A stretch of DNA of 64,000 nt from an uncultured Candidatus Saccharibacteria bacterium (GCA_964607655.1 CAZSKX010000001.1:147434-211433), one strand, 5' to 3'; shown: positions 1,721 to 64,000, counted from the first letter of the stretch. Program-made: numbers and translations. Notes: generated by a model from the letters alone, not told the origin.

Positions 1721-1790
1721 GTCGCTACTCTAACATGGCAATGAGTTCATCTAAAAAACATTGCCGACACTCTATGCTTCGTCTATTACT

Positions 1791-2225
1791 ATGACTAAAA
1801 AGACTTCAGCACAGATCGTCGCTGGTGTGGGGGCTGGACTCGCCGCAGTGGGTGCAGCGGGCTACTACTTCTACGCGAGCTCTCGTGCGAAGAGTCACCG
1901 TAAAATCGCCGCCCGATGGGCAACCACTATGAAAAACGAAGTTGTCCGTGATGTGAAAAAATTAAAAGACCAAATCACTGCTCAGGATATCGCTCTCATT
2001 GTCGATAGTGTGGCGAAAGCATATGAGGGTACGCGCTCTAAGACGACTACGGCGGTTAAGCGAGCGGCAGCAGAACTCAAACGAAACTGGGAACTGGTTC
2101 GTGATGAATCGCTCGGGACTCAAAAATATGCTCCCGTAAGGATAAAAGCCTCGCATTCTAAAGCCGCAAAAGCTCGCAAGAGTACAAAACGCCGGGTGCC
2201 GACCCGCACGCGCCCTCGCCGCTAA
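1791..2225 (+). CDS. hypothetical protein with an N-terminal TM anchor and a Lys/Arg-rich C-terminus
   Basis: ORF with hydrophobic N-terminal segment AQIVAGVGAGLAAVGAAGYYF; the ATG at 1791 is preferred over the upstream TTG. Confidence 0.4.
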   Translation: MTKKTSAQIVAGVGAGLAAVGAAGYYFYASSRAKSHRKIAARWATTMKNEVVRDVKKLKDQITAQDIALIVDSVAKAYEGTRSKTTTAVKRAAAELKRNWELVRDESLGTQKYAPVRIKASHSKAAKARKSTKRRVPTRTRPRR

Positions 2226-16271: not shown

Positions 16272-17042
16272 ATGGAACTCAAAATCTTACAGTGGAATAT
16301 AGGCGGTGGGTTCATCCGAAATGCAGAAGACGACGTCATGACTCCTGGGATTTATTGCCATGACAATTTTCAATGCGTTATTGACTTCGTTAAACAAACA
16401 CAACCTGACATAATCGCCCTCCAGGAGTCGCACGCAAAAGAGGAAGGTGTACAGGCCGAGCAGTTAGCAAAGGCTCTTGGATATACCTCTTGGGTTAATG
16501 ACCCCTGTGACGACTCGCACATAGATCCCGCAGCTAAACTGTCGCAATCGATCATTTCTCGCTTTCCAATTACTTCGCATCGATTCGACTCGTTTCTCAA
16601 TCCGCACTGGACGCGGCAAGAGGGAGAGAATAAGTACCATTCTCACGAGAAAGGCATGACCACCTGTGAGCTGTCTGTCGACAACAGCACATTAGTCGTC
16701 CAGACGCTTCACGCCGTTCCGTTCAATAACTTCTTTAGCGTTCATCCAGGCAGCCCCGAGGCCGAGCCGGTGCGTGCTAGTATGGCAGTCTGTGTGCGGC
16801 CACGCGATGGTCAGTCATATGTATTGGCGGGAGATTTTAATATTGATCAAGGGCCATTGTCCGATTTTTTCCCGACACTGAAGGAAAAGGGGATAGAGGA
16901 GTTCGAACTAGATACACCAACAACTCCCAAGGGACGACATTTTGATCACGTCCTTTATCGTGACCTCACACCGGTAAGCATCAGTTCTGATCAAACTGTA
17001 TTAACCGATCACTATCCAGTTATCGCAACATTTTCTTTTTAG
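16272..17042 (+). CDS. endonuclease/exonuclease/phosphatase (EEP) family protein
   Basis: LQWNIGGG, DIIALQESH, GDFNIDQ and DHYPV motifs; about 48% GC. Confidence 0.75.
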   Translation: MELKILQWNIGGGFIRNAEDDVMTPGIYCHDNFQCVIDFVKQTQPDIIALQESHAKEEGVQAEQLAKALGYTSWVNDPCDDSHIDPAAKLSQSIISRFPITSHRFDSFLNPHWTRQEGENKYHSHEKGMTTCELSVDNSTLVVQTLHAVPFNNFFSVHPGSPEAEPVRASMAVCVRPRDGQSYVLAGDFNIDQGPLSDFFPTLKEKGIEEFELDTPTTPKGRHFDHVLYRDLTPVSISSDQTVLTDHYPVIATFSF

Positions 17043-17502: not shown

Positions 17503-18228
17503 CTAGCAGTTAACGTGTGACGTTATGTACTCGAACGCCTCGTCTACACTGTCGACGAGCTTATAGAGCTCCATGTCCTTCTCGTCGATCGCCTTACGAT
17601 CCTCATATACGGTCTTTTGGATAAAGTCTAAGAGAGGCTCCCAGTAATCCTTACCAAATAGGACGATGGGCACCTTACGGACCTTGCCGGTCTGTACGAG
17701 GGTCAGGATCTCAAAGAATTCGTCCAAGGTGCCAAATCCTCCGGGGAAACATACGTACACCTCAGAGGCATATACGAGCATCACTTTTCGTACGAAGAAA
17801 TGGTCGAAGCCGTAACGTTCGGTGACATAGGGATTGTAGTGTTGTTCGTGTGGAAGGTTGATGTTCAGACCGACTGATGGGCCACCTGCTTCAAAGGCTC
17901 CTTTATTTGCGGCCTGCATCACGCCCATCGAGCCGCCGCTGATGACCGCGAAGCCGGCCTTAGAGAGGCGCTGAGCCAGCTCGTAGACTTGAGCATAGGT
18001 GTGGGTGTCTGGTGCCGTTCGTGCGCTACCGAAAAAGGTAACAGCTAGGCCATATTTCTTTAATAAGTCAAAGCCTTCGACAAACTCGGCCATGATGCGG
18101 AAGAGACGCCACGACTCCATCTGGCGTGGCTTACAGACAAGGAGCGGGCGTTCGCCGGCGGCAGGAAGGGAACGCTGCCCTTCGTGGACAGCTTTAGAGA
18201 GTTGATCGCCGACCGCTTGAGGATCCAT
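17503..18228 (-). CDS. LOG-family protein (TIGR00730, cytokinin riboside 5'-monophosphate phosphoribohydrolase-like)
   Basis: GGSMGVMQAANKGA and PGGFGTLDEFFE motifs. Confidence 0.85.
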   Translation of the reverse strand: MDPQAVGDQLSKAVHEGQRSLPAAGERPLLVCKPRQMESWRLFRIMAEFVEGFDLLKKYGLAVTFFGSARTAPDTHTYAQVYELAQRLSKAGFAVISGGSMGVMQAANKGAFEAGGPSVGLNINLPHEQHYNPYVTERYGFDHFFVRKVMLVYASEVYVCFPGGFGTLDEFFEILTLVQTGKVRKVPIVLFGKDYWEPLLDFIQKTVYEDRKAIDEKDMELYKLVDSVDEAFEYITSHVNC

Positions 18229-30489: not shown

Positions 30490-30945
30490 ATGGCAATACA
30501 TGAAAATCTAAAGAAAGAGATCCCGGACGCGATGCGCGCCAAGGACGCGGTGAAGCTGCAAACGCTTCGCTCCTTGGTGACGGCGATGACGAACGAAGTG
30601 GTCAATAAGAAGCGTAAGCCCGACGAATTCCTCACCGACGAAGAGGCGCTTGCGGTCCTTAAGCGCGCGGCCAATCAGCGCAAGGACTCGATCGAGCAGT
30701 TTGAGGCGGCGGGCCGCAACGAGCTCGCTGAGCCAGAGAAGCTCGAGCTCGCGATCATCCAAGGCTATCTCCCCGCTCAGATGGGCGAAGAAGAGGTTAA
30801 GGCGGCGGTCGCCGCTAAGGCAGCAGAGCTCGGCGTATCTACTAAGGCTGATGCTAACAAGCTTATTGGCGCGCTCATGAAAGACCTTAAGGGTAAGGCG
30901 GATGGCGCGCTCGTGAAGCAGGTAGTAGACAACTTGTTCCAATAG
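30490..30945 (+). CDS. GatB/YqeY domain protein
   Basis: Whole-length match to the YqeY family (LKKEIPDAMRAKDAVKLQTLRSL...). Confidence 0.8.
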   Translation: MAIHENLKKEIPDAMRAKDAVKLQTLRSLVTAMTNEVVNKKRKPDEFLTDEEALAVLKRAANQRKDSIEQFEAAGRNELAEPEKLELAIIQGYLPAQMGEEEVKAAVAAKAAELGVSTKADANKLIGALMKDLKGKADGALVKQVVDNLFQ

Positions 30946-30974
30946 GGGTTTAATAAATTTCGGAGGGATACAGT

Positions 30975-31295
30975 ATGAATCAAGAGCAGCCAAGGAAAAC
31001 ACCAATCCAGGACCAGATGCGCCGGCTGGAAACCGAAGGGGCTTTTGAAAAGCCCAGGAGAGAAGAAAAAGCAATCGGTACTCCAATCCAGGACCAGATG
31101 CGCCGCATCGAAGAAGAAAAGGAGCTTCGAAGACAGGCTCTTTTCCCAGAGCAGGCAAAAACCGCAGATCTCGATGACGAAGGCAATGTCGTAGTGCCGG
31201 ACACAGGATCTCGTATGTACATCGATCCGAAGGACGGGCAGATCCACGAACAAATGCCGGGAAAGAGACTTCCCCCGCATTCTCGAGCCGCGTGA
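30975..31295 (+). CDS. hypothetical protein with an internal duplicated TPIQDQMRR motif
   Basis: GGAGGG Shine-Dalgarno sequence; a 23-nt exact direct repeat at 31003-31025 and 31083-31105 encodes the repeated peptide. Confidence 0.4.
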   Translation: MNQEQPRKTPIQDQMRRLETEGAFEKPRREEKAIGTPIQDQMRRIEEEKELRRQALFPEQAKTADLDDEGNVVVPDTGSRMYIDPKDGQIHEQMPGKRLPPHSRAA

Positions 31296-31345
31296 GTGTA
31301 CCAACACTCGCGCGGTTTTCCCTTTTCTGGTATAAAACATAGCAA

Positions 31346-31417
31346 GGCCCCATCGTCTAACGGCTAGGACAGCGCCCTCTCACGGCGTAAATCGGGGTTC
31401 GATTCCCCGTGGGGTCA
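31346..31417 (+). tRNA. tRNA-Glu (anticodon CTC)
   Basis: Cloverleaf with acceptor GGCCCCA/TGGGGTC, anticodon stem GCGCC/GGCGT and loop CTCTCAC, T-loop TTCGATT. Confidence 0.75.
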
Positions 31418-31491
31418 CACAGATTTTGTGCTTGTTTTAAGCCACGCTACAGCAGTACCAAATTAGTCATTGGAACCTGTATAATAGAGAT

Positions 31492-31857
31492 ATGAAAATC
31501 CTTGTCGCACACGCAAGCAACTTTGATTACAAGACTGAGCTTTACCAACCCCTGAAACACTCAGCCTTGCTACAGCAGCATACGGTCATCTATCCTCACG
31601 ATGATGAGAATGTAGAAATAGAGACCAATTCTCATATCCCAGATACTGATCTGATGCTCGCAGAGGTGTCGTATCCTTCTACAGGGGCGGGCATTGAGAT
31701 AGGGCTCGTTCAGGCAGCGGGCATACCTACACTCTTTGTATACAGAGCTGGAACCAAGCCTTCTGGATCTCTTAGGTTTATAAAGGGAAAGCGGATTGAG
31801 TATTCAGATTCAGCCGATCTTGTTGCGAAGGTAGAGGCAGAGATTGCCGCCCTCTAG
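31492..31857 (+). CDS. nucleoside 2-deoxyribosyltransferase-like protein
   Basis: DLMLAEVSYPSTGAGIEIGLVQAAGIPTLFVY matches the Nuc_deoxyrib_tr core; about 47% GC; TATAAT lies 6 nt before the ATG. Confidence 0.55.
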   Translation: MKILVAHASNFDYKTELYQPLKHSALLQQHTVIYPHDDENVEIETNSHIPDTDLMLAEVSYPSTGAGIEIGLVQAAGIPTLFVYRAGTKPSGSLRFIKGKRIEYSDSADLVAKVEAEIAAL

Positions 31858-31909
31858 TTCTTCCGCAGTATCCTTCCAAATGCAAGCCAGCCTCTAACCT
31901 GCGTCACCA

Positions 31910-32428
31910 ATGGAAAAAGCTCCTCGTCTGACACACTTCGTTCCTGTCGAAGAGATTTGGGAGGATCGGCAACGTGCGTTTGAAGATGAAAAGAAGGCGT
32001 TACAGGATGTCCTCTCAGGAATAGAGGCGGAATTCTTCCATATTGGCGGCTCCTCTATTCCGGGCGTCTTAACCAAGGGTGACTTAGATATTCAAATACA
32101 CGTACCAGCCGAAGACTTTGAGACGTCAGTAGAGAGGATGAAAGAATATGCGAGCGAGAAAGCGGTCGAAGTATGGACTCCCCAATCAGCAGTATTCGTC
32201 AATCATAGACCAGACTTCCCGATTGACTACATTTTGAGTGTGAAAGGTTCTATAGAAAGCGAAATTTATATGGAAGCAAAGAATCTGTTGCAAACGAAGC
32301 CAGAGTTCCTCGCAGAATATAATGCCTTAAAAAACTCTTTTGAAGGTAAGCCGTACGAAGAATATCGAGTTGCTAAAACTAAGTTCTGGGACGCTTGGAA
32401 GAGGCGCTTTCGAGAAGAAAAGGAATAA
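31910..32428 (+). CDS. GrpB-family (UPF0157) nucleotidyltransferase-fold protein
   Basis: HIGGSSIPGVLTKGDLDIQI GrpB signature. Confidence 0.7.
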   Translation: MEKAPRLTHFVPVEEIWEDRQRAFEDEKKALQDVLSGIEAEFFHIGGSSIPGVLTKGDLDIQIHVPAEDFETSVERMKEYASEKAVEVWTPQSAVFVNHRPDFPIDYILSVKGSIESEIYMEAKNLLQTKPEFLAEYNALKNSFEGKPYEEYRVAKTKFWDAWKRRFREEKE

Positions 32429-32431
32429 CTA

Positions 32432-32821
32432 TCACTCCCCCTTCATCCGGTGGGCTTTCTTGATTTCCCAGTAGACCGCTTCAGAGCCAGCGTCAACGCC
32501 ATCTGCGCGGTTATTAAAGAGATGCGCAGGATACTTCTCTTTGATCTTCTCGAGCTTCTCGAAGAGGATCGCCTCGGTATCAAAGCCAAGTAATACGCTG
32601 ATATCAAAACAATATGTGAGCACATCGGCTAATTCCTTTTTGATCTGTGCTAGCTTCTCAGGATCCTGCTTTACCTCCTCAAGCGAAGGGTTTGTCCATT
32701 GAAAGAGCTCGAGGAGCTCGGCTGACTCAATCGCCACCGATTTAGCAAGATCGCCGGGGCGTAGAGTGTCCCACTTCCGCTCCTTGAGATATTCAAGCAC
32801 GGCTTCTTCGTAGGGCTTCAT
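32432..32821 (-). CDS. MazG-like nucleotide pyrophosphohydrolase
   Basis: DLAKSVAIESAELLELFQW...ELADVLTYCFDI, typical of all-alpha NTP pyrophosphatases. Confidence 0.7.
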   Translation of the reverse strand: MKPYEEAVLEYLKERKWDTLRPGDLAKSVAIESAELLELFQWTNPSLEEVKQDPEKLAQIKKELADVLTYCFDISVLLGFDTEAILFEKLEKIKEKYPAHLFNNRADGVDAGSEAVYWEIKKAHRMKGE

Positions 32822-32913
32822 GCGCGTATGGTATCACGACTTGCGACTCCCCTTCTCCCGAGCTATAACACGTGCAGAAGCAAGAGCCTTGTCGCTCTTG
32901 GAGGAGTTCTAAA

Positions 32914-33477
32914 ATGTACGCAAAGCATCATGAAAAATCGCTTCTGCCGGATGGCGAAGGGGTCGTGGCGTCGAGTTTCGAAGCATTGGCCGAGATCGCA
33001 GCAGAAGGGCTCGGTGGAGCCACTGGCCACGTGATGGTCTGTGGGCCGATCACGACCGGAGGTACGGGCAATCAGACCCACAACTTCCTGATCATGAACG
33101 CGGTCGTTCGAGGTCTGAAGCGTCGAGGACGCAAGATCTTCGACCAGCTTCCCTACGAGCGAGGGCTGCGCAGGCTCATCTTCGAATGGGAAAACGCGGG
33201 TCACACAGGTTACTGCTGGCCGATCCTCGACGTGTTTTACACGAGAGTCTTCGGCACAGGATCGATCAGTGAGGGATGGTTTATTCCGGGTTGGAAGTCT
33301 TCGGTGGGCGCCACTTGGGAACGAGAGCAGCTCGAAGCTCGTGGCTGCATCATCCACGACCTGACCTTCGCGGAGATTCGCGAGTTCCTCGTCGACGAGT
33401 GCGCTCCGGAGCTCATCGAGACCATCATGAGCGAGCTCGCCGAAGGCGTCGACCCCACTGCTCCTGCCACGCCTTAA
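32914..33477 (+). CDS. DUF4406-like (nucleoside 2-deoxyribosyltransferase-like fold) protein
   Basis: VMVCGPITTGGTGNQTHNFLIMNAVVRGLKRRGRKIF resembles the DUF4406 N-terminal motif; GGAGGAG Shine-Dalgarno sequence. Confidence 0.45.
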   Translation: MYAKHHEKSLLPDGEGVVASSFEALAEIAAEGLGGATGHVMVCGPITTGGTGNQTHNFLIMNAVVRGLKRRGRKIFDQLPYERGLRRLIFEWENAGHTGYCWPILDVFYTRVFGTGSISEGWFIPGWKSSVGATWEREQLEARGCIIHDLTFAEIREFLVDECAPELIETIMSELAEGVDPTAPATP

Positions 33478-33497
33478 GCGTGACCGGGGCTCAAGCG

Positions 33498-33535
33498 CAA
33501 AAAGCCGCTCTCGGGGACGAGAGCGGCTTTTCTTA
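33498..33535 (+). terminator. intrinsic terminator
   Basis: AAAAAGCCGCTCTCGGGGACGAGAGCGGCTTTTCTT. Confidence 0.8.
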
Positions 33536-33690
33536 ACTCCTCGATGGAAGAGGTAGAAGGCGCTCTGTTGAGTGCCTGGCGTACCATAGTAGACAACCTT
33601 AATATTTTATTGTAGCTTTTGGCGAGCGTTGCTCACCCGAGCAACAGCTTGTAACTGAGTTCTATAAATCTGTATACGGAGAACAAACAC

Positions 33691-34344
33691 ATGTTCGAAG
33701 CATTGTCCGTCTTTCTCTTGGCTCCGGTCGTGGCGGCCTACACATTGCTCACCATCTCGTGGTGGATCGGTGGCGGCTTCTTCTGCCTTTTCCTGTGGTC
33801 GACTTACCTCGTCCACTCGGACGAACGTTCCGACGCGCTGGGCTTCGCGGCCTTCCTCGGCGGTATCGTTCTCGCCGTCTTTGCCGGCAACTACTTCGGG
33901 ACGGAGACGTCCCTTTGGGAAGCCGTCAAGCTGACGTTCGTTGCCGTTGCTTCTGGCATCGGCCAGTACGCGATTTGGGGCATCATCGTCATGCCGTTCC
34001 TCTGGATCTTCCAGGGGCTCGAGTTCCGGCGCAAGTACCGCCAAGCGGAGCACGCGTTCAGGGAACAAAAGGCCATCCCCAGCAACCGTATGGGTGATGA
34101 CAGAATCTGGGAATCGTGTCTGCATGACGCCGGTCTGCGCAAGGACACGCCGATCGACGCGACGAGCAAAGAAGGAGTGAGGGCGATCGCCAGCTACTTC
34201 TTCGCGTGGCCGCTTCATGTGGCAGACCGGGCATTCGGGGAGTTCATCCGCCAGATCCCCGAGCTCTTGTCGGTCATGTTTGGCGGACTCCTGAACCGTC
34301 TTACGAAAGTGGTGACGGGCGGAGCTGCCGGTCGACCGGCCTGA
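33691..34344 (+). CDS. hypothetical integral membrane protein
   Basis: Four predicted TM helices, GGAGAA Shine-Dalgarno sequence; no recognisable family. Confidence 0.45.
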   Translation: MFEALSVFLLAPVVAAYTLLTISWWIGGGFFCLFLWSTYLVHSDERSDALGFAAFLGGIVLAVFAGNYFGTETSLWEAVKLTFVAVASGIGQYAIWGIIVMPFLWIFQGLEFRRKYRQAEHAFREQKAIPSNRMGDDRIWESCLHDAGLRKDTPIDATSKEGVRAIASYFFAWPLHVADRAFGEFIRQIPELLSVMFGGLLNRLTKVVTGGAAGRPA

Positions 34345-34386
34345 CGTTCTCCCATTACTCAGCGCACAAGCGTTGGGTCAAAATCA

Positions 34387-34427
34387 GCCGCTCGCATCCT
34401 CACGGGTGCGGGCGGTTTCCTTTTTCT
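34387..34427. terminator. imperfect hairpin terminator between convergent genes
   Basis: GCCGCTCGCATCC-tcac-GGGTGCGGGCGG followed by TTTCCTTTTTCTG. Confidence 0.45.
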
Positions 34428-34452
34428 GACCCAGCGAATTAGATCTACTGCG

Positions 34453-35727
34453 CTACGCCCTCTTCTTCCACTCCTTACTCTGGCGCACGAGGAGGTGGCT
34501 GTCAGAGGGGTTGGCGAGGAGCGCCTCGACGATGCGTTCGGTGCGGATCGACTGAGAGCCTTTTATAAGAATCACATCTCCTTGCTGTATCTGGCTCGGG
34601 AGCGCTGCGGCGGCCAGGTCTGCGTCGTCGTATTGTAATATCTCACTCGATCCAGAAGTGCCGACCATCCGTCGTGCACGTACCCCGACCGTGACCAGGA
34701 GATCTGCCGTCTGGCGCGCCAGGGCTCCAATACGCTCATGTTCTTGTACGGAGTAGCGACCGAGTTCGAGCATATCGCCGAGGACGGCGATACGGCGCTT
34801 AGCACCCGGGAAGTGTTTAAGAGTATCGAGTGCCTCCTCGACGGCGACCGGTGAGGCGTTGTATGAATCGTCGATGATGATGGAGTCGTTGACGCCTCGC
34901 AAGAGTCGGCCTCTTCCTGCGGGCGGCTCATACTGCTTGAGAGCTTCGAGCGCGTCGGTGAGCGAAATATCAAATGCTTGTGCTGTAGCGAGAGCGGCGG
35001 CAATCGGTAAGAGCTGCACCTTCCCTACTGAGCCCTGGACAACCGCAGTGCCCTTCTCTTCGCCGAGCGTCACCTGTGCAGACATGCCGTTGACCTCGTG
35101 GTCCTTTTTATGAAAAACGATGTGTGAGAGGTGCGCTGTCGCTCCCTTCCCCTCGCCGTAGGTGAGGATGCGCGCAGGAGTGCGCTTCGACATCTCGAGC
35201 AGATGGGGCTTCCCGGTCGGGATGATGAGAGGCGCAGCTCCCTTCAGAGCATAGGCGGGTGAAAACTCTTCCTCCTGGACTGCTTCAGGCGACGCGTAGG
35301 CCTCGACGTGGACTGGAATGTCTGGGAGTCGGGTGACCACTACTGTGTCTGGCTGGGCGATCTTAAGGATGCGCGTGAGGTCGCCGGGCTTATCGGCGCC
35401 CACCTCGAGTACGAGCATGTTGGGATAGTGGTTCGGTAAGAAGATGAGTCCGATCGCGCTCTTAACTACCTTGAGCCAGGCTGAGGGGTTGCCCCACGGG
35501 TTCTCGACATCAAGGATAGTGAAGGGTACGCCGAATTCGCTGTTAAAACTCTTCTCACTCTTTCTCACAAGAAATCGTTGCGAGAGCACGGCAGCGACGG
35601 CGTCTTTGGTGGAGGTCTTCCCTACCGAACCCGTGACCATGACGATCGTGGGGCGATATTTGCGCACCACCGTGCGCGCAGAGAGGCCGAGGAAGAAGGC
35701 AACGAAGGATTTGAGAGCGTCTTTCAT
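34453..35727 (-). CDS. murF: UDP-MurNAc-tripeptide--D-Ala-D-Ala ligase
   Basis: VTGSVGKTSTKD and DDSYNASP motifs. Confidence 0.85.
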   Translation of the reverse strand: MKDALKSFVAFFLGLSARTVVRKYRPTIVMVTGSVGKTSTKDAVAAVLSQRFLVRKSEKSFNSEFGVPFTILDVENPWGNPSAWLKVVKSAIGLIFLPNHYPNMLVLEVGADKPGDLTRILKIAQPDTVVVTRLPDIPVHVEAYASPEAVQEEEFSPAYALKGAAPLIIPTGKPHLLEMSKRTPARILTYGEGKGATAHLSHIVFHKKDHEVNGMSAQVTLGEEKGTAVVQGSVGKVQLLPIAAALATAQAFDISLTDALEALKQYEPPAGRGRLLRGVNDSIIIDDSYNASPVAVEEALDTLKHFPGAKRRIAVLGDMLELGRYSVQEHERIGALARQTADLLVTVGVRARRMVGTSGSSEILQYDDADLAAAALPSQIQQGDVILIKGSQSIRTERIVEALLANPSDSHLLVRQSKEWKKRA

Positions 35728-62098: not shown

Positions 62099-62908
62099 TT
62101 ATAGGGCCATCTCCTGAGTCTCTGCAGTTTCTTGATTAAAAAGAACGCGATGCTTGATAGAAATGATAGTATCGCCATTATTGTCTGTTCCTTCAACATC
62201 TCCAAACTCGAATACAATGGTGTTGCTGCTGCGGTCTTCGTGACATTGGATGTCGACTGGACCAAATGACCAAGTGTCGGCTTCTGGAGCTAGATTTGGG
62301 TACTTGGCAAATAATTCGAGCACAGGAGTGAAGCTTGGTACCGCATAGACAGACGCGTCAGCGGATCCATCAAGCGGAGTGTTGTAGCAAGTATAAAAAT
62401 ATTTTTCTGAGGAGGTGAAGGTGCCTGAACCCATGGGAATGTTCATGACTTCCTTGTTTTGTTTTATGTCATAGATATGGTGCGCACCTCCTTCCCAGAA
62501 TCCAATATAATATTCAAAATATGTCTGGGATGGGCTGAAATGAACGTACCCGAATTTTCCATCACGGACCTGACTAACGTTGTATGAAGTGGTAGCTATG
62601 CGAATTGGATGTGCTCCGGATACCGCAAGCCAGAGTTCTGTGGCTTGATCGTGAGAAATCGTATACACCCGCAAGCCGTCCTCGTCGTATAAGACTTGTT
62701 CTGCGGCAGTCATGGCTCTTTGATCCAATCGCTTCTCTGTGGTTGAAGCGGCGGTTGATAGTGGCGTAGTTGTCGCCGCATAGGGTACAGTTGCAATTCC
62801 ATGATTGTCATAGGCTAAAAAAGTTACAAAAGCGACTAACGCACTTATAAGAAGCAGTGATGTAAGATGTCTCCTCACCACGCTAGAGTTTAACAGTTTA
62901 CTTTGCAT
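62099..62908 (-). CDS. hypothetical secreted protein (about 43% GC)
   Basis: Start placed at MQSKLLNSS with a signal/TM segment LLLISALVAFVTFLA; overlaps the tgt 3' end by 11 nt. Confidence 0.45.
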   Translation of the reverse strand: MQSKLLNSSVVRRHLTSLLLISALVAFVTFLAYDNHGIATVPYAATTTPLSTAASTTEKRLDQRAMTAAEQVLYDEDGLRVYTISHDQATELWLAVSGAHPIRIATTSYNVSQVRDGKFGYVHFSPSQTYFEYYIGFWEGGAHHIYDIKQNKEVMNIPMGSGTFTSSEKYFYTCYNTPLDGSADASVYAVPSFTPVLELFAKYPNLAPEADTWSFGPVDIQCHEDRSSNTIVFEFGDVEGTDNNGDTIISIKHRVLFNQETAETQEMAL

Positions 62909-64000
62909 AATAATCCCTCTCAAAATCTTTTCGATACTCGGTGAAGCGGTCGTCGAGGATAGCTTGGCGGGCGTCGGAGACAAGCTTGAGAATAAAGCCG
63001 AGGTTGTGCTGCGAACAGATGATCGAACCAAGCATTTCTTTCGAGCGGATTAGGTGTGCGAGGTAGGCACGAGTAAAGGGCTCGGTGCCGGGGATAATGG
63101 TCTCCGGGTCGAGTGGGTTAAAATCGTTTTTAAACTTCTCTCCGGTGAGATGGATGATCCCTCGACGGGTGTAGATAGATCCGTGACGGCCGATTCGTGT
63201 TGCCGCAACGCAGTCGAAGAGGTCGATACCATTTGCAATCCCCTCTAAAATATCGCCCGGCTCGCCGATGCCGAGGAAGTGCTTCGGCAATTCTTCGGGC
63301 AACTCCCCCATTGCGGCTTGGAGCGCTCCGCGCATATCTTTCTTAGTAAATGAGCCGCCGATACCGATGCCATCAAAGCCTAGCGAAGCGATTTCTTTTG
63401 CACTCTCACGGCGGAGGTCTTCGTGCCGCCCACCTTGAACGATACCGAAAATAGCCTGTTTCTCACGTGCATTAATATTTTGTCGATGCGCCTTCAAACT
63501 TCTCTCGGCCCACCGGTGCGTGCGATCCATCGCCTCCTTTTGATACTCGTACGGCTCAGTCGGCGAGGTGCACTCGTCGAAGGCGAAGAACATATCGGCG
63601 CCCAAGGCGTGCTGGATCTCGATCGATCGCTCAGGGGTAAAGCGGTGGAGAGAGCCGTCGAGGTGTGAGGTGAAGGTGACGCCCTCCTCATCGATCACGG
63701 CCAGCTGTCCGTGCTGACTCGCGACGTCTTGGTCGTACACGGCCAGCTGCTCCTGCTTCTCGGTCGTCTCCCCTATCTCTCCTTTTGTAAACTTCGAAAT
63801 AGTTTTACCAAAGGCGGCACCGAGCGAGAATACCTGGAAGCCGCCCGAGTCGGTCATCGTGGGCCCGTCCCAGCCCATAAACTTCCCGAACCCCCCAGCT
63901 TGTTCGACGATCTTCTCGCCGGGCTGGAGGTAGAGATGGTAGGTGTTGGCGAGCACCACTTCGGCCCCCACTTGCTTGAGGATCTCAGGTGAGACACCTT
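62898..64000 (-). CDS. tgt: queuine tRNA-ribosyltransferase (N-terminus beyond the window end)
   Basis: LANTYHLYLQPG...LTDSGGFQVFSL and zinc-binding region; the frame remains open to the window edge. Confidence 0.85.
   Translation of the reverse strand, partial: GVSPEILKQVGAEVVLANTYHLYLQPGEKIVEQAGGFGKFMGWDGPTMTDSGGFQVFSLGAAFGKTISKFTKGEIGETTEKQEQLAVYDQDVASQHGQLAVIDEEGVTFTSHLDGSLHRFTPERSIEIQHALGADMFFAFDECTSPTEPYEYQKEAMDRTHRWAERSLKAHRQNINAREKQAIFGIVQGGRHEDLRRESAKEIASLGFDGIGIGGSFTKKDMRGALQAAMGELPEELPKHFLGIGEPGDILEGIANGIDLFDCVAATRIGRHGSIYTRRGIIHLTGEKFKNDFNPLDPETIIPGTEPFTRAYLAHLIRSKEMLGSIICSQHNLGFILKLVSDARQAILDDRFTEYRKDFERDYYAK

What the first reader, a model, noticed from the sequence alone, without database searches (positions are those of the whole stretch)
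31346..34344. tRNA-Glu-adjacent islet of nucleoside/nucleotide-manipulating genes with mosaic GC
Immediately 3' of tRNA-Glu lie four genes: a nucleoside 2-deoxyribosyltransferase-like gene, a GrpB nucleotidyltransferase-fold gene and a MazG-like NTP pyrophosphohydrolase gene, all at about 47% GC against about 59% for the flanking DNA, followed by a second deoxyribosyltransferase-fold (DUF4406-like) gene. A GC-rich membrane protein gene of unknown function comes after them. This combination is typical of phage auxiliary nucleotide-metabolism modules and also of nucleotide-based conflict and salvage systems. Proximity to a tRNA and the atypical composition argue for horizontal acquisition. In a host-dependent reduced genome the genes could alternatively be a deoxynucleoside salvage toolkit.
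Basis: partly seen in the sequence, partly recalled or inferred. Interest (0 to 1): 0.6.

Follow-up and report, generated by a model that had tools for sequence, protein, structure and literature searches.

The report
Accessory nucleotide-hydrolase genes in tRNA-Glu hotspot
A 3-kb stretch between a tRNA-Glu gene and murF in an ultra-small (Paceibacteria-type) bacterium is a swap-prone slot that here holds five accessory genes, four of them predicted nucleotide-handling enzymes. It is an ordinary gene-gain hotspot, not a phage or defence system.

Summary
tRNA-Glu(CUC) lies at 31346-31418 and is followed by five real genes. GC is 47% over 31492-32821, against 56% for the window. Three of the four domain calls stand; the DUF4406 call is only weakly supported. 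g1 has the nucleoside deoxyribosyltransferase fold but is closest to DNPH1/MilB-type nucleotide N-glycosidases. g2 is GrpB and g3 is MazG-like. g4 is a divergent DUF4406/DUF1937-like protein, supported only at family level.

Fifteen sister species keep the order murF, tRNA-Glu(CUC), YqeY, RmuC, but none carries any of the five genes there. The gap from murF to the tRNA 3' end ranges from 11 bp to 3 kb, with different cargo in each species. The islet is therefore the whole of 31419-34452, and this slot is a variable hotspot.

Only g1 and g2 have foreign codon usage. g4 and g5 look native. I found no integrase, no tRNA or murF repeat, no defence-system match and no phage hallmark gene.

The five genes are not a conserved module. 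Close g1 homologues do sit just 3' of a tRNA-Glu gene in most related loci, and one shares the window's spacer. g4 homologues recur next to MazG or NUDIX pyrophosphatases.

Verdict: a composite accessory islet, most likely nucleotide clean-up or salvage. Moderate-to-low interest.

The parts
31346..31418 (+). tRNA-Glu (anticodon CUC). Left anchor of the variable slot; its 3' end faces the cargo.
   Evidence: ARAGORN and Rfam tRNA at 58.6 bits. A tRNA-Glu(ctc) is present at the equivalent position in all 15 sister loci.
31419..31491 (+). Spacer of 73 nt between the tRNA and g1. It is nearly identical to the tRNA-Glu(UUC)-to-g1 spacer of locus L116 and has a TATAAT 8 nt before the ATG.
   Evidence: Alignment A2. 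The spacers show no significant RNA structure.
31492..31857 (+). g1: 121-aa protein of the DNPH1/MilB-like nucleotide N-glycosidase fold (nucleoside deoxyribosyltransferase superfamily), from a Patescibacteria-specific family. Codon usage is foreign.
   Evidence: Pfam PF05014 at 18.4 bits, below the cut-off. Family of 74 proteins. Profile against PDB matches DNPH1 at E 1.4e-7. AlphaFold pLDDT 93.6 and Foldseek TM-scores 0.64-0.79 to DNPH1/MilB/BcmB. Codon z -4.1.
31910..32428 (+). g2: GrpB-family (UPF0157) nucleotidyltransferase-fold protein. It is a near-orphan in sequence and has the lowest GC3 of the five genes.
   Evidence: Pfam GrpB at 52.6 bits. Only 5 homologues at 35% identity or less among 5.8 billion proteins. 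GGSS...DLD motif in the sequence. Codon z -4.7.
32432..32821 (-). g3: MazG-like all-alpha NTP pyrophosphohydrolase. It is convergent with g2 (3 bp apart) and divergent from g4 (92 bp apart).
   Evidence: Pfam PF12643 at 41.4 bits and PF03819 at 22.2 bits. PHROG pyrophosphatase. A 54%-identical homologue sits next to a g4 homologue in L003. ExxE...ExxD motifs in the sequence.
32914..33477 (+). g4: 187-aa divergent DUF4406/DUF1937-like protein with a deoxyribosyltransferase-type fold, from a Paceibacteria-restricted family. Codon usage is native-like.
   Evidence: No direct Pfam hit. Family of 59 proteins. Six of 40 members hit DUF4406. PDB 1t1j at E 0.0067. AlphaFold pLDDT 91.8. Best viral fold matches, all weak, are mostly NDT/DUF4406/DUF1937 proteins. 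Codon z -0.5.
33500..33531 (.). Perfect 14-bp hairpin flanked by A and T runs: a terminator-like element after g4.
   Evidence: Inverted repeat I8.
33691..34344 (+). g5: 217-aa membrane protein of a very rare family. It is GC-rich with native codon usage and is absent from the sister loci.
   Evidence: No Pfam, PHROG or PADLOC hit. Ten relatives at E up to 0.001 among 1.84 billion representatives (five of them near full length), best 45% identity. No hit in any fetched locus. Codon z -0.1.
34386..34417 (+). Terminator-like hairpin between the 3' ends of g5 and murF.
   Evidence: Terminator scan.
34453..35727 (-). murF (Mur ligase). Right anchor of the variable slot; its 3' end faces the cargo.
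   Evidence: Sixty-eight per cent or less identical orthologues, in conserved mraW-ftsL-PBP-murF order, in the sister loci.

Best explanation
The segment 31419-34452 is the cargo of an integrase-free, lineage-variable slot in a Paceibacteria-type (CPR) genome. The slot lies between the 3' end of tRNA-Glu(CUC) and the 3' end of murF. In this genome the cargo is composite.

**Parts of the cargo**
1. A tRNA-Glu-linked gene, g1, encodes a small DNPH1/MilB-like nucleotide N-glycosidase-fold protein. Its close homologues elsewhere sit immediately 3' of a tRNA-Glu gene. It was probably placed here, or retained here, by recombination anchored in the tRNA-Glu gene.
2. g2 is a compositionally foreign, near-orphan GrpB nucleotidyltransferase-fold gene.
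3. g3 and g4 form a divergent pair: a MazG-like NTP pyrophosphohydrolase and a DUF4406-like deoxyribosyltransferase-fold protein.
4. g5 is a rare membrane protein.

**Inferred function**
This is non-essential nucleotide clean-up or salvage. A pyrophosphatase (g3) would convert an aberrant or surplus (d)NTP to the monophosphate. N-glycosidase-fold enzymes (g4, g1) would then split the monophosphate into base plus (deoxy)ribose-5-phosphate.

**Shown and inferred**
- Shown: the gene models, the folds and families, absence from the sister loci, the codon-usage strata, the tRNA-Glu linkage of g1, and the recurrence of g4 next to pyrophosphatases.
- Inferred: the substrates, the two-step pathway, and the recombination mechanism.
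For: **Variable slot**
- In 15 sister species the order mraW-ftsL-PBP-murF-[gap]-tRNA-Glu(ctc)-small ORF-YqeY-RmuC-L21-DEAD helicase is conserved. None has a homologue of g1 to g5 in the gap.
- The distance from murF to the tRNA 3' end runs from 11 bp to 3051 bp.
- The cargo elsewhere is unrelated: a methyltransferase, a pilin, SET, a Zeta/AAA_33 kinase, GFA and DUF4236.

**Compositional strata**
- g1 and g2 fall below all 146 native 130-codon pieces. g3 is borderline. g4 and g5 are native-like.

**g1 and tRNA-Glu**
- Eight of nine independent close-clade loci (71% identity or more) have a same-strand tRNA-Glu within 2 kb upstream, and four of them have it within 80 bp.
- The window's spacer is almost identical to that of L116.
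- In L110 the tRNA-Glu(ctc)-g1 unit sits in the same murF-YqeY slot but inverted.

**g1 fold and motif**
- E69, in the GxE motif, is invariant.

**g4 neighbours**
- MazG and NUDIX in L003, NUDIX and LOG in L198, and MazG in the window.

**Mobility and conflict signatures**
- No integrase, no att-like repeat and no defence hit.
Against: - No enzyme activity has been tested.
- g1 lacks two DNPH1 active-site features. The position aligned to Asp80 is Ser47, and the N-terminal YFCGSIRGG loop is replaced by VAHSSxFDY. Its substrate may therefore not be a dNMP.
- g4's link to DUF4406 is remote. Foldseek against the PDB found nothing significant.
- The g3-g4 pairing rests on only two independent loci, and the gene orientations differ between them.
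- g1 homologues have lower GC than their host loci everywhere examined. Low GC alone therefore does not date its arrival.
- L110 raises the alternative that tRNA-Glu(ctc)-g1 is ancestral and was lost in the sisters.
- The genome's tRNA-Glu(UUC) locus lies outside the window and could not be inspected.
Confidence: 0.6

Rival explanations
1. Native, vertically inherited salvage cluster. The tRNA-Glu-g1 arrangement, and perhaps g3 to g5, are ancestral to this lineage and were lost repeatedly in the sampled sister species. Low GC would be an intrinsic property of these genes.
For: - The tRNA-Glu-to-g1 linkage is conserved across several Paceibacteria, including the same murF-YqeY slot in the more distant L110.
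- g1 homologues always have lower GC than their loci.
- g4 and g5 have native codon usage.
Against: - All 15 sister species with conserved flanks lack all five genes, and several have tRNA-Glu 11-41 bp from murF.
- The window's g1 is closer to g1 homologues from other loci (87% to the UUC-linked L106, 89% to L105) than to the CUC-linked L110 g1 (72%).
- g2 is a near-orphan with the most foreign codon usage.
- No other locus has the five genes together.
Confidence: 0.17
2. Remnant of a phage or prophage auxiliary nucleotide-metabolism module that integrated at tRNA-Glu and has since lost its integrase and structural genes.
For: - MazG-like relatives occur in 20 viral contigs and 11 phage records at 31-45% identity.
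- GrpB has a weak PHROG hit and two phage-record hits.
- The best, though weak, viral fold matches of the g4 model are phage NDT/DUF4406/DUF1937 proteins.
- The region lies next to a tRNA.
Against: - The window has no integrase, no att-type repeat of the tRNA or murF end, and no phage structural or replication genes.
- g1 and g4 have no hits in viral contigs or in 50,697 phage records.
- The closest homologues of g1, g3 and g4 lie among cellular housekeeping genes of Paceibacteria.
Confidence: 0.08
3. A nucleotide-based anti-phage defence or conflict system, in which an NDT-fold effector depletes or modifies nucleotides alongside a nucleotidyltransferase and a pyrophosphatase.
For: - NDT-fold, nucleotidyltransferase-fold and NTP-pyrophosphatase domains are recurrent parts of conflict systems (my own knowledge, not tested here).
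- The region lies in a variable hotspot, and the sister cargo includes a Zeta-toxin-like kinase.
Against: - None of the five proteins matches a PADLOC model.
- The genes are not co-oriented, so they do not form one operon.
- The combination never recurs: no g2 to g5 homologue was found near any of about 85 g1 homologues.
- g1 is a widely conserved stand-alone gene of 121 aa with no sensor or partner.
Confidence: 0.05
4. Assembly or binning artefact: a lower-GC fragment from another organism chimerically joined into a metagenome-assembled contig.
For: - The genome is evidently a metagenome-assembled genome.
- There is an abrupt GC drop over g1 and g2.
Against: - Both flanks are collinear with 15 sister genomes across the junction.
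- The tRNA-g1 junction and spacer are reproduced in an independent assembly, L116.
- Sister genomes also carry cargo of variable length at the same point.
- A 3-kb internal chimera inside a syntenic block is implausible.
Confidence: 0.02

Closest known systems
DNPH1/Rcl (2'-deoxynucleoside 5'-phosphate N-hydrolase; hmdUMP hydrolase) and the CMP N-glycosidases MilB/BcmB. Closest to g1.
   Same: - Same fold: all top-50 PDB Foldseek hits belong to these enzymes, with TM-scores 0.64-0.79.
- The family profile matches at E 1.4e-7.
- The motif AEV..PS.G.G.E.G is shared, with the nucleophile Glu (g1 E69) and the Ser of PSxG (S63) conserved.
   Different: - g1 is shorter, at 121 aa.
- The N-terminal Tyr/phosphate loop (YFCGSIRGG) is replaced by a family-specific VAHSSxFDYxxELYxP motif.
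- The position aligned to catalytic Asp80 is Ser47.
- Identity is only 11-21%.
- The family is restricted to Patescibacteria, is often tRNA-Glu-linked, and has no biochemical data.
Nucleoside 2-deoxyribosyltransferase (Pfam PF05014, the Lactobacillus NDT/PDT type)
   Same: Same superfamily and the same Glu-nucleophile motif. Ten of 74 g1 family members carry a precomputed PF05014 hit.
   Different: g1 itself scores 18.4 bits against a cut-off of 28.8. Its structural neighbours are monophosphate N-glycosidases, not transferases.
DUF4406 (PF14359) and DUF1937 (PA1492, PDB 1t1j): deoxyribosyltransferase-like proteins, common in phages. Closest to g4.
   Same: - The N-terminal GP..GG loop and the C-terminal W.SS.GA.WE motif resemble those of DUF4406 (from memory).
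- Six of 40 homologues hit DUF4406 and one hits DUF1937.
- PDB 1t1j matches at E 0.0067.
- The best viral fold matches, all weak (E 0.009 or worse), are named NDT, DUF4406 or DUF1937.
   Different: - g4 itself has no Pfam hit.
- It carries extra helices, with helical inserts and a C-terminal helical tail over its 187 aa.
- Foldseek against the PDB was not significant.
- The family has only about 59 clusters, almost all from Paceibacteria.
MazG-like all-alpha NTP pyrophosphohydrolases (PF12643; house-cleaning enzymes of bacteria and phages). Closest to g3.
   Same: The Pfam score is above the cut-off and the metal-binding ExxE...ExxD motifs are present in the sequence. Distant phage relatives exist.
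   Different: The substrate is unknown. Here, and in L003, the gene is paired with the DUF4406-like g4 family.
GrpB / UPF0157 (PF04229) nucleotidyltransferase-fold proteins. Closest to g2.
   Same: Full-length Pfam match at 52.6 bits, and a GS...DxD nucleotidyltransferase motif in the sequence.
   Different: The nearest relatives are only 31-35% identical. It is not fused to dephospho-CoA kinase. The function of the family is itself unknown.
tRNA-adjacent genomic islands, and integrase-free recombination hotspots flanked by conserved core genes
   Same: The region lies at the 3' end of a tRNA gene. Its presence and content vary among relatives, part of the cargo has atypical composition, and the newest-looking genes lie closest to the tRNA.
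   Different: There is no integrase and no direct repeat of the tRNA 3' end, and the region is very small (3 kb). Acquisition is more likely by homologous recombination through the conserved flanks (tRNA-Glu and murF) than by site-specific integration.

Membership tests
Nucleoside 2-deoxyribosyltransferase (PF05014), for g1 | Pfam HMM score at or above the gathering cut-off | tested here: not met
   18.4 bits against a cut-off of 28.8. Ten of 74 homologues do carry PF05014 in precomputed hits.
Nucleoside 2-deoxyribosyltransferase (PF05014), for g1 | NDT-type flavodoxin-like fold with the catalytic Glu nucleophile | tested here: met
   AlphaFold pLDDT 93.6. Foldseek matches members of the superfamily. 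E69 is invariant in 49 sequences and aligns to the DNPH1 GYELG Glu.
DNPH1/Rcl-type nucleotide N-glycosidase, for g1 | Significant profile and fold similarity | tested here: met
   hmmsearch E 1.4e-7. Foldseek E 5e-5 and TM-scores up to 0.79.
DNPH1/Rcl-type nucleotide N-glycosidase, for g1 | Catalytic Asp (human D80) and the N-terminal Tyr/phosphate-binding loop | tested here: not met
   The position aligned to D80 (alanine in the D80A mutant chain 8rpt) is Ser47 in g1. The N-terminus is VAHSSxFDY instead of YFCGSIRGG (the DNPH1 motif is from my own knowledge).
DNPH1/Rcl-type nucleotide N-glycosidase, for g1 | Hydrolysis of dNMP to base plus deoxyribose-5-phosphate | not testable with these tools
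   Needs an enzyme assay.
GrpB (PF04229), for g2 | Pfam HMM at or above the cut-off over the full domain, with a nucleotidyltransferase GS...DxD motif | tested here: met
   52.6 bits against 25.5, covering profile positions 7-156 of 159. HIGGSS...GDLD is in the sequence.
MazG-like (PF12643), for g3 | Pfam HMM at or above the cut-off, with the ExxE...ExxD metal-binding motifs | tested here: met
   41.4 bits against 27. IESAELLE and KELADV are in the sequence.
DUF4406 (PF14359), for g4 | Pfam HMM match | tested here: not met
   No hit even at E up to 10. Six of 40 homologues match, with a best E of 3.9e-7.
DUF4406 (PF14359), for g4 | Deoxyribosyltransferase-like fold | tested here: inconclusive
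Integrase-mediated tRNA genomic island | Integrase or recombinase gene in or next to the island | tested here: not met
   No such ORF or Pfam hit lies between YqeY and murF.
Integrase-mediated tRNA genomic island | Direct repeat of the tRNA 3' end at the distal boundary | tested here: not met
   The only candidate is a 14-nt match with one mismatch inside g4, covering 7 nt of the tRNA. Otherwise there are only chance matches of 9-11 nt.
Integrase-mediated tRNA genomic island | Present in this genome and absent at the same site in relatives; atypical composition | tested here: met
   Absent in 15 sister loci. g1 and g2 have codon z scores of -4.1 and -4.7; g4 and g5 are not atypical.
Known anti-phage defence systems (PADLOC-DB) | Match of any component to a defence-system model | tested here: not met
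   No hits for the five proteins at E up to 0.01.
Phage or prophage auxiliary module | Phage hallmark genes nearby, or close homologues in phage genomes | tested here: not met
   No hallmark genes. g1 and g4 have no viral hits. g2 has 2 and g3 has 11 distant hits among 50,697 phage records.

The most novel reading that the evidence does not exclude
tRNA-Glu-to-g1 is a conserved, possibly co-transcribed two-gene unit of Paceibacteria, and g1 founds a CPR-specific branch of the DNPH1/MilB N-glycosidase fold. That branch has a remodelled active site (His7, Asp12, Tyr18, Ser47 and Glu69) and hence a new substrate. The unit would relocate between the tRNA-Glu(UUC) and tRNA-Glu(CUC) loci, and between genomes, by homologous recombination anchored in the near-identical tRNA-Glu genes. 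That would make tRNA-Glu an integrase-free landing pad. In the same reading, the DUF4406-like g4 family works with MazG or NUDIX pyrophosphatases as a two-step NTP-to-base disposal pathway.
Probability: 0.25. Interest if true: 0.5.

Novelty: new member of a known kind. Interest (0 to 1): 0.3.

Why it matters
CPR/Patescibacteria bacteria lack most nucleotide biosynthesis and depend on scavenged nucleotides, so their accessory nucleotide-hydrolysing enzymes bear on how they feed and on how they keep their nucleotide pools clean.

This locus gives three testable leads:
- A Patescibacteria-wide 121-aa family with the DNPH1 fold and an altered active site.
- A Paceibacteria-specific DUF4406-like family that recurs next to NTP/NDP pyrophosphatases.
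- A cleanly delimited, integrase-free variable slot (tRNA-Glu/murF) for studying gene gain in reduced genomes.

None of this overturns current understanding. It is a well-behaved example of a small accessory islet.

Tried and rejected
- **Repeats at the islet boundaries.** I looked for direct repeats of the tRNA-Glu 3' end and of the murF 3' end (repeat finder; blastn-short and tblastn). Only chance-level matches turned up. The 14-nt GGGTCACACAGATT/GGGTCACACAGGTT pair (31412/33198) covers just 7 nt of the tRNA and lies inside g4, so I rejected it as an att site.
- **Defence and phage libraries.** PADLOC gave nothing. PHROGs gave only weak hits for g2 and g3.
- **The window's own proteins.** g2, g3 and g4 could not be retrieved with the look-up of encoding contigs, although identical proteins on a 464,554-bp NCBI contig are in the protein collection. 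The rest of the genome, including its tRNA-Glu(UUC) locus, therefore could not be examined.
- **g1 against g4.** hhalign of the two family profiles was not significant; it aligned only the S.G..E motif.
- **Family HMMs against all loci.** HMMs of the g1 and g4 families, run against every ORF of the roughly 200 fetched loci, found no hidden relatives in the sister hotspots or next to viral MazG genes.
- **Spacer RNA structure.** The tRNA-g1 spacers show no significant fold, with z-scores from -1.0 to +1.2. Rfam finds nothing but the tRNA.
- **Literature.** Searches on DUF4406, deoxyribosyltransferase with Patescibacteria, DNPH1 with MazG, CPR nucleotide salvage, GrpB, and Patescibacteria genomic islands found nothing specific to these families.
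- **tRNA comparison.** I compared tRNA-Glu sequences to look for a chimeric tRNA. The window's CUC tRNA differs from L106's UUC tRNA at only 4 positions, against 5 or more for the sister CUC tRNAs. The gene is too short to conclude anything.

Full report
**What is there**

ARAGORN and Rfam place a tRNA-Glu (anticodon CUC) at 31346-31418 on the + strand. Five ORFs follow:

| Gene | Coordinates | Strand | Length | Note |
|---|---|---|---|---|
| g1 | 31492-31857 | + | 121 aa | |
| g2 | 31910-32428 | + | 172 aa | |
| g3 | 32432-32821 | - | 129 aa | |
| g4 | 32914-33477 | + | 187 aa | start as called in the public database (P0001); the open frame begins at a GTG at 32872 |
| g5 | 33691-34344 | + | 217 aa | four hydrophobic segments, then a soluble tail |

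- murF follows at 34453-35727 on the - strand, so its 3' end faces the cargo.
- The window is a CPR/Paceibacteria-type genome. Its relatives are labelled Kaiserbacteria, Nomurabacteria, Paceibacterota and Minisyncoccia.
- Overall GC is 0.559, with an sd of 0.031 for 1-kb windows. The segment 31492-32821 is 0.471 and is one of three comparably low patches.

**Composition**

I scored each gene against 32 confident native genes and a null of 146 native 130-codon pieces.

| Gene | GC3 | Codon-usage z | Reading |
|---|---|---|---|
| g1 | 0.475 | -4.1 | below every null piece |
| g2 | 0.445 | -4.7 | below every null piece |
| g3 | 0.60 | -1.5 | borderline; total GC of 0.50 is largely amino-acid driven (GC2 0.31) |
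| g4 | 0.69 | -0.5 | native-like |
| g5 | 0.78 | -0.1 | native-like |

The 'mosaic GC' is real, but the compositionally foreign part is g1 plus g2.

**Domain calls**

- **g2 and g3.** GrpB (52.6 bits) and MazG-like (41.4 bits) pass Pfam's cut-offs. The expected motifs are visible in the sequence: GGSS...DLD in g2, and ExxE...ExxD in g3.
- **g1, sequence level.**
  - It reaches only 18.4 bits for Nuc_deoxyrib_tr, against a cut-off of 28.8.
  - It belongs to a tight family of about 121-aa Patescibacteria proteins: 74 clusters, the closest at 89, 87 and 83% identity.
  - The family profile matches DNPH1/Rcl at E 1.4e-7 and a CMP N-glycosidase at 6e-5, through the motif AEVsyPStGaGiElG.
- **g1, structure and active site.**
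  - Its AlphaFold model (pLDDT 93.6) has DNPH1, MilB or BcmB as all of its top 50 PDB matches, with TM-scores 0.64-0.79.
  - The nucleophile Glu (E69) and the Ser of PSxG (S63) are conserved.
  - The position aligned to DNPH1 Asp80 is Ser47. The N-terminal loop is a family-specific VAHSSxFDYxxELYxP.
  - g1 is therefore a member of the deoxyribosyltransferase superfamily and is closest to monophosphate N-glycosidases. Its active site is altered and its substrate is unknown.
- **g4.**
  - It has no Pfam hit. It belongs to a family of 59 clusters, almost all from Paceibacteria.
  - Six of 40 members hit DUF4406 and one hits DUF1937. PDB 1t1j (PA1492) matches weakly.
  - The confident model (pLDDT 91.8) finds nothing significant in the PDB by Foldseek.
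  - Its best viral matches are named N-deoxyribosyltransferase, DUF4406, DUF1937 or CMP hydrolase. All are weak, at E 0.009 or worse.
  - The DUF4406-like call is plausible but not proven.
- **g5.** It has only ten relatives at E up to 0.001 among 1.84 billion representatives, five of them near full length and the best 45% identical.

**Is it an insertion?**

I scanned species-representative genomes with MurF and obtained about 30 loci at 54-68% identity.

- In the 15 loci that extend far enough, the order mraW-ftsL-PBP-murF-[gap]-YqeY-RmuC-L21-DEAD helicase is conserved. Every gap contains a tRNA-Glu(CUC).
- None contains a homologue of g1, g2, g3, g4 or g5 (tblastn, E below 1e-5; family HMMs).
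- The distance from the murF stop codon to the tRNA 3' end varies widely:

| Locus | Distance (bp) |
|---|---|
| L005 | 11 |
| L024 | 22 |
| L013, L009 | 37, 41 |
| L023 | 154 |
| L019 | 338 |
| L025 | 381 |
| L027, L016, L014, L008 | 927-1084 |
| L015 | 1894 |
| L017 | 2659 |
| L021 | 3051 |
| window | 3034 |

- The cargo elsewhere is unrelated: a class-I methyltransferase, a pilin-like protein, SET, a Zeta-toxin/AAA_33 kinase, GFA, DUF4236-TPR and unknowns.
- The whole of 31419-34452 is therefore the occupant of a lineage-variable slot between two convergent conserved genes. It also extends the islet to the GC-rich g4 and g5.

**No classical mobility signature**

- There is no integrase or transposase.
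- There is no repeat of the tRNA 3' end or of the murF 3' end.
- No phage hallmark genes are present.
- Terminator-like hairpins bracket the units, at 31285-31318, 33500-33531 and 34386-34417.
- One sister, L021, does carry two extra copies of the last 25 codons of murF inside its cargo. Serial insertions at the murF end therefore occur in this lineage.

**The genes are not one module**

*g1.*
- About 85 loci carrying g1 homologues contain no g2 to g5 homologue.
- Close g1 homologues (71% identity or more) lie just 3' of a tRNA-Glu on the same strand:

| Locus | tRNA-Glu anticodon | Distance to g1 (bp) |
|---|---|---|
| window | CUC | 73 |
| L110/L112 | CUC | 63 |
| L106 | UUC | 39 |
| L113 | UUC | 76 |
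| L116 | UUC | 73 |
| L115 | UUC | 319 |
| L107/L108 | UUC | 1240 |
| L114 | UUC | 1853 |

- Only L105 lacks a tRNA-Glu within 1.3 kb upstream.
- The UUC loci share a tRNA-Ser(CGA)/tRNA-Glu(UUC) head-to-head pair, and in L105, L106, L107 and L116 a nearby tRNA-Val(GAC).
- The window's 73-nt spacer is nearly identical to that of L116.
- In L110, a more distant relative (MurF 53% identical), the tRNA-Glu(CUC)-g1 unit occupies the same murF-YqeY slot but inverted.
- g1 homologues have lower GC than their loci everywhere examined.
- So tRNA-Glu-to-g1 is a conserved linkage. The window's copy either arrived or persisted through recombination anchored in the tRNA-Glu gene. The CUC and UUC genes can differ at as few as four positions between genomes.

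*g4.* Six other contexts for g4 homologues were seen:

| Locus | Genes around the g4 homologue |
|---|---|
| L003 | NUDIX, g4 homologue, MazG-like (54% identical to g3), tRNA-Val(GAC) |
| L198 | XerC-like recombinase, NUDIX, g4 homologue, LOG |
| L001 | histidine phosphatase |
| L193 | GNAT acetyltransferase |
| L195 | fatty-acid desaturase |
| L054 | 2.4 kb downstream of murF, after two other ORFs (a 196-aa and a 558-aa ORF) |

 Counting the window, three of seven contexts place the g4 family beside an NTP/NDP-X pyrophosphatase.

*g2.* It is a near-orphan: only 5 homologues, at 35% identity or less.

**Phage or defence?**

- PADLOC gives no hits.
- Viral contigs hold relatives only of the MazG-like gene, at 31-45% identity.
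- tblastn against 50,697 phage records gives none for g1 and g4, two for g2 and eleven for g3.
- The closest homologues of g1, g3 and g4 lie among housekeeping genes of cellular Paceibacteria.
- The phage-module and conflict-system readings are therefore not supported.

**Most likely function (inferred)**

- g3 would hydrolyse some (d)NTP to the monophosphate.
- g4 and g1 have N-glycosidase-type folds with a conserved Glu, and would release base and (deoxy)ribose-5-phosphate.
- This is a clean-up or salvage route, and it suits an organism dependent on scavenged nucleotides.
- The window also encodes a core LOG-type nucleotide N-glycosidase (17503-18228) and a NUDIX protein (52171-52602).
- The role of GrpB is unknown. 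No activity has been shown for any of these proteins.

**Verdict**

- The horizontal, accessory nature of the region is supported and its boundaries are sharpened.
- The tRNA-repeat, integrase, phage and conflict ideas are not supported.
- The region is a small composite accessory islet in an integrase-free tRNA-Glu/murF hotspot: a new member of a known kind.
- The most interesting by-products are the conserved tRNA-Glu-g1 linkage, the uncharacterised DNPH1-like family with a remodelled active site, and the recurring pairing of g4 with a pyrophosphatase.

Noticed in passing
L021:12444-12518 and L021:13659-13733 (also L049:11897-11989): The cargo of sister locus L021 contains two extra copies of the last 25 codons of murF, at 73-80% amino-acid identity to the window's MurF C-terminus. 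L049 has one weaker copy. They look like footprints of serial insertions that duplicated the murF 3' end.
   Followed up: partly
L013, L027, L029 (gap regions) and L110:7865-7937: The orientation of tRNA-Glu(CUC) relative to murF flips among related genomes. It is on the same strand as murF in L013, L027, L029 and L110, and on the opposite strand in the window and 12 sisters. This implies small inversions around the tRNA.
   Followed up: no
window 30975-31295 (+): A 106-aa highly charged ORF lies between YqeY and tRNA-Glu. It has an internal 33-nt repeat spaced 81 nt apart and atypical codon usage (z -3.1). Sister genomes have a different small basic ORF at this position.
   Followed up: partly
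window 16272-17042 (+), 52171-52602 (-), 1761-2225 (+), 62099-63031 (-): Other genes in low-GC patches of the window: an Exo_endo_phos nuclease/phosphatase (codon z -3.9), a NUDIX hydrolase (z -3.6), an unknown 154-aa ORF (z -2.7), and an unknown 310-aa ORF in a 46%-GC patch that was not scored. They may be further accessory acquisitions.
   Followed up: partly
L014:7363-7977 (+): The same tRNA-Glu/murF slot in sister L014 holds a 204-aa ORF with an N-terminal 'FLAGPILGGGDW' motif. That motif is reminiscent of deoxyribosyltransferase-like proteins, but there is no Pfam hit and no match to the g1 or g4 family HMMs.
   Followed up: partly
L198:1042-4208: One g4 homologue (P0025, 247 aa) has a C-terminal extension of about 70 aa with a faint GMP_synt_C hit. 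It sits between a NUDIX gene and a LOG-family gene, next to a XerC-like tyrosine recombinase.
   Followed up: partly
window 17503-18228 (-): A LOG/SLOG-family protein (Lysine_decarbox, 119.9 bits) that is 68% identical to the L198 LOG. It appears to be a core nucleotide N-glycosidase of this lineage, separate from the islet.
   Followed up: partly
window 30508-31353 (-): A 281-aa ORF on the antisense strand overlaps YqeY and the 106-aa ORF. It has low GC3 for this genome and is almost certainly a spurious open frame of GC-rich DNA, not a gene.
   Followed up: no
L003, L105, L106, L107, L116: In other Paceibacteria, g1 homologues, and in L003 the g4-MazG pair, lie in a variable region near a tRNA-Val(GAC). 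In L106, L107 and L116 the region is bounded on its other side by tRNA-Ser(CGA)/tRNA-Glu(UUC). In L003, L106 and L107 it adjoins a TsaD, class-I tRNA synthetase, PrsW block. This looks like a second tRNA-flanked hotspot holding the same gene families.
   Followed up: partly
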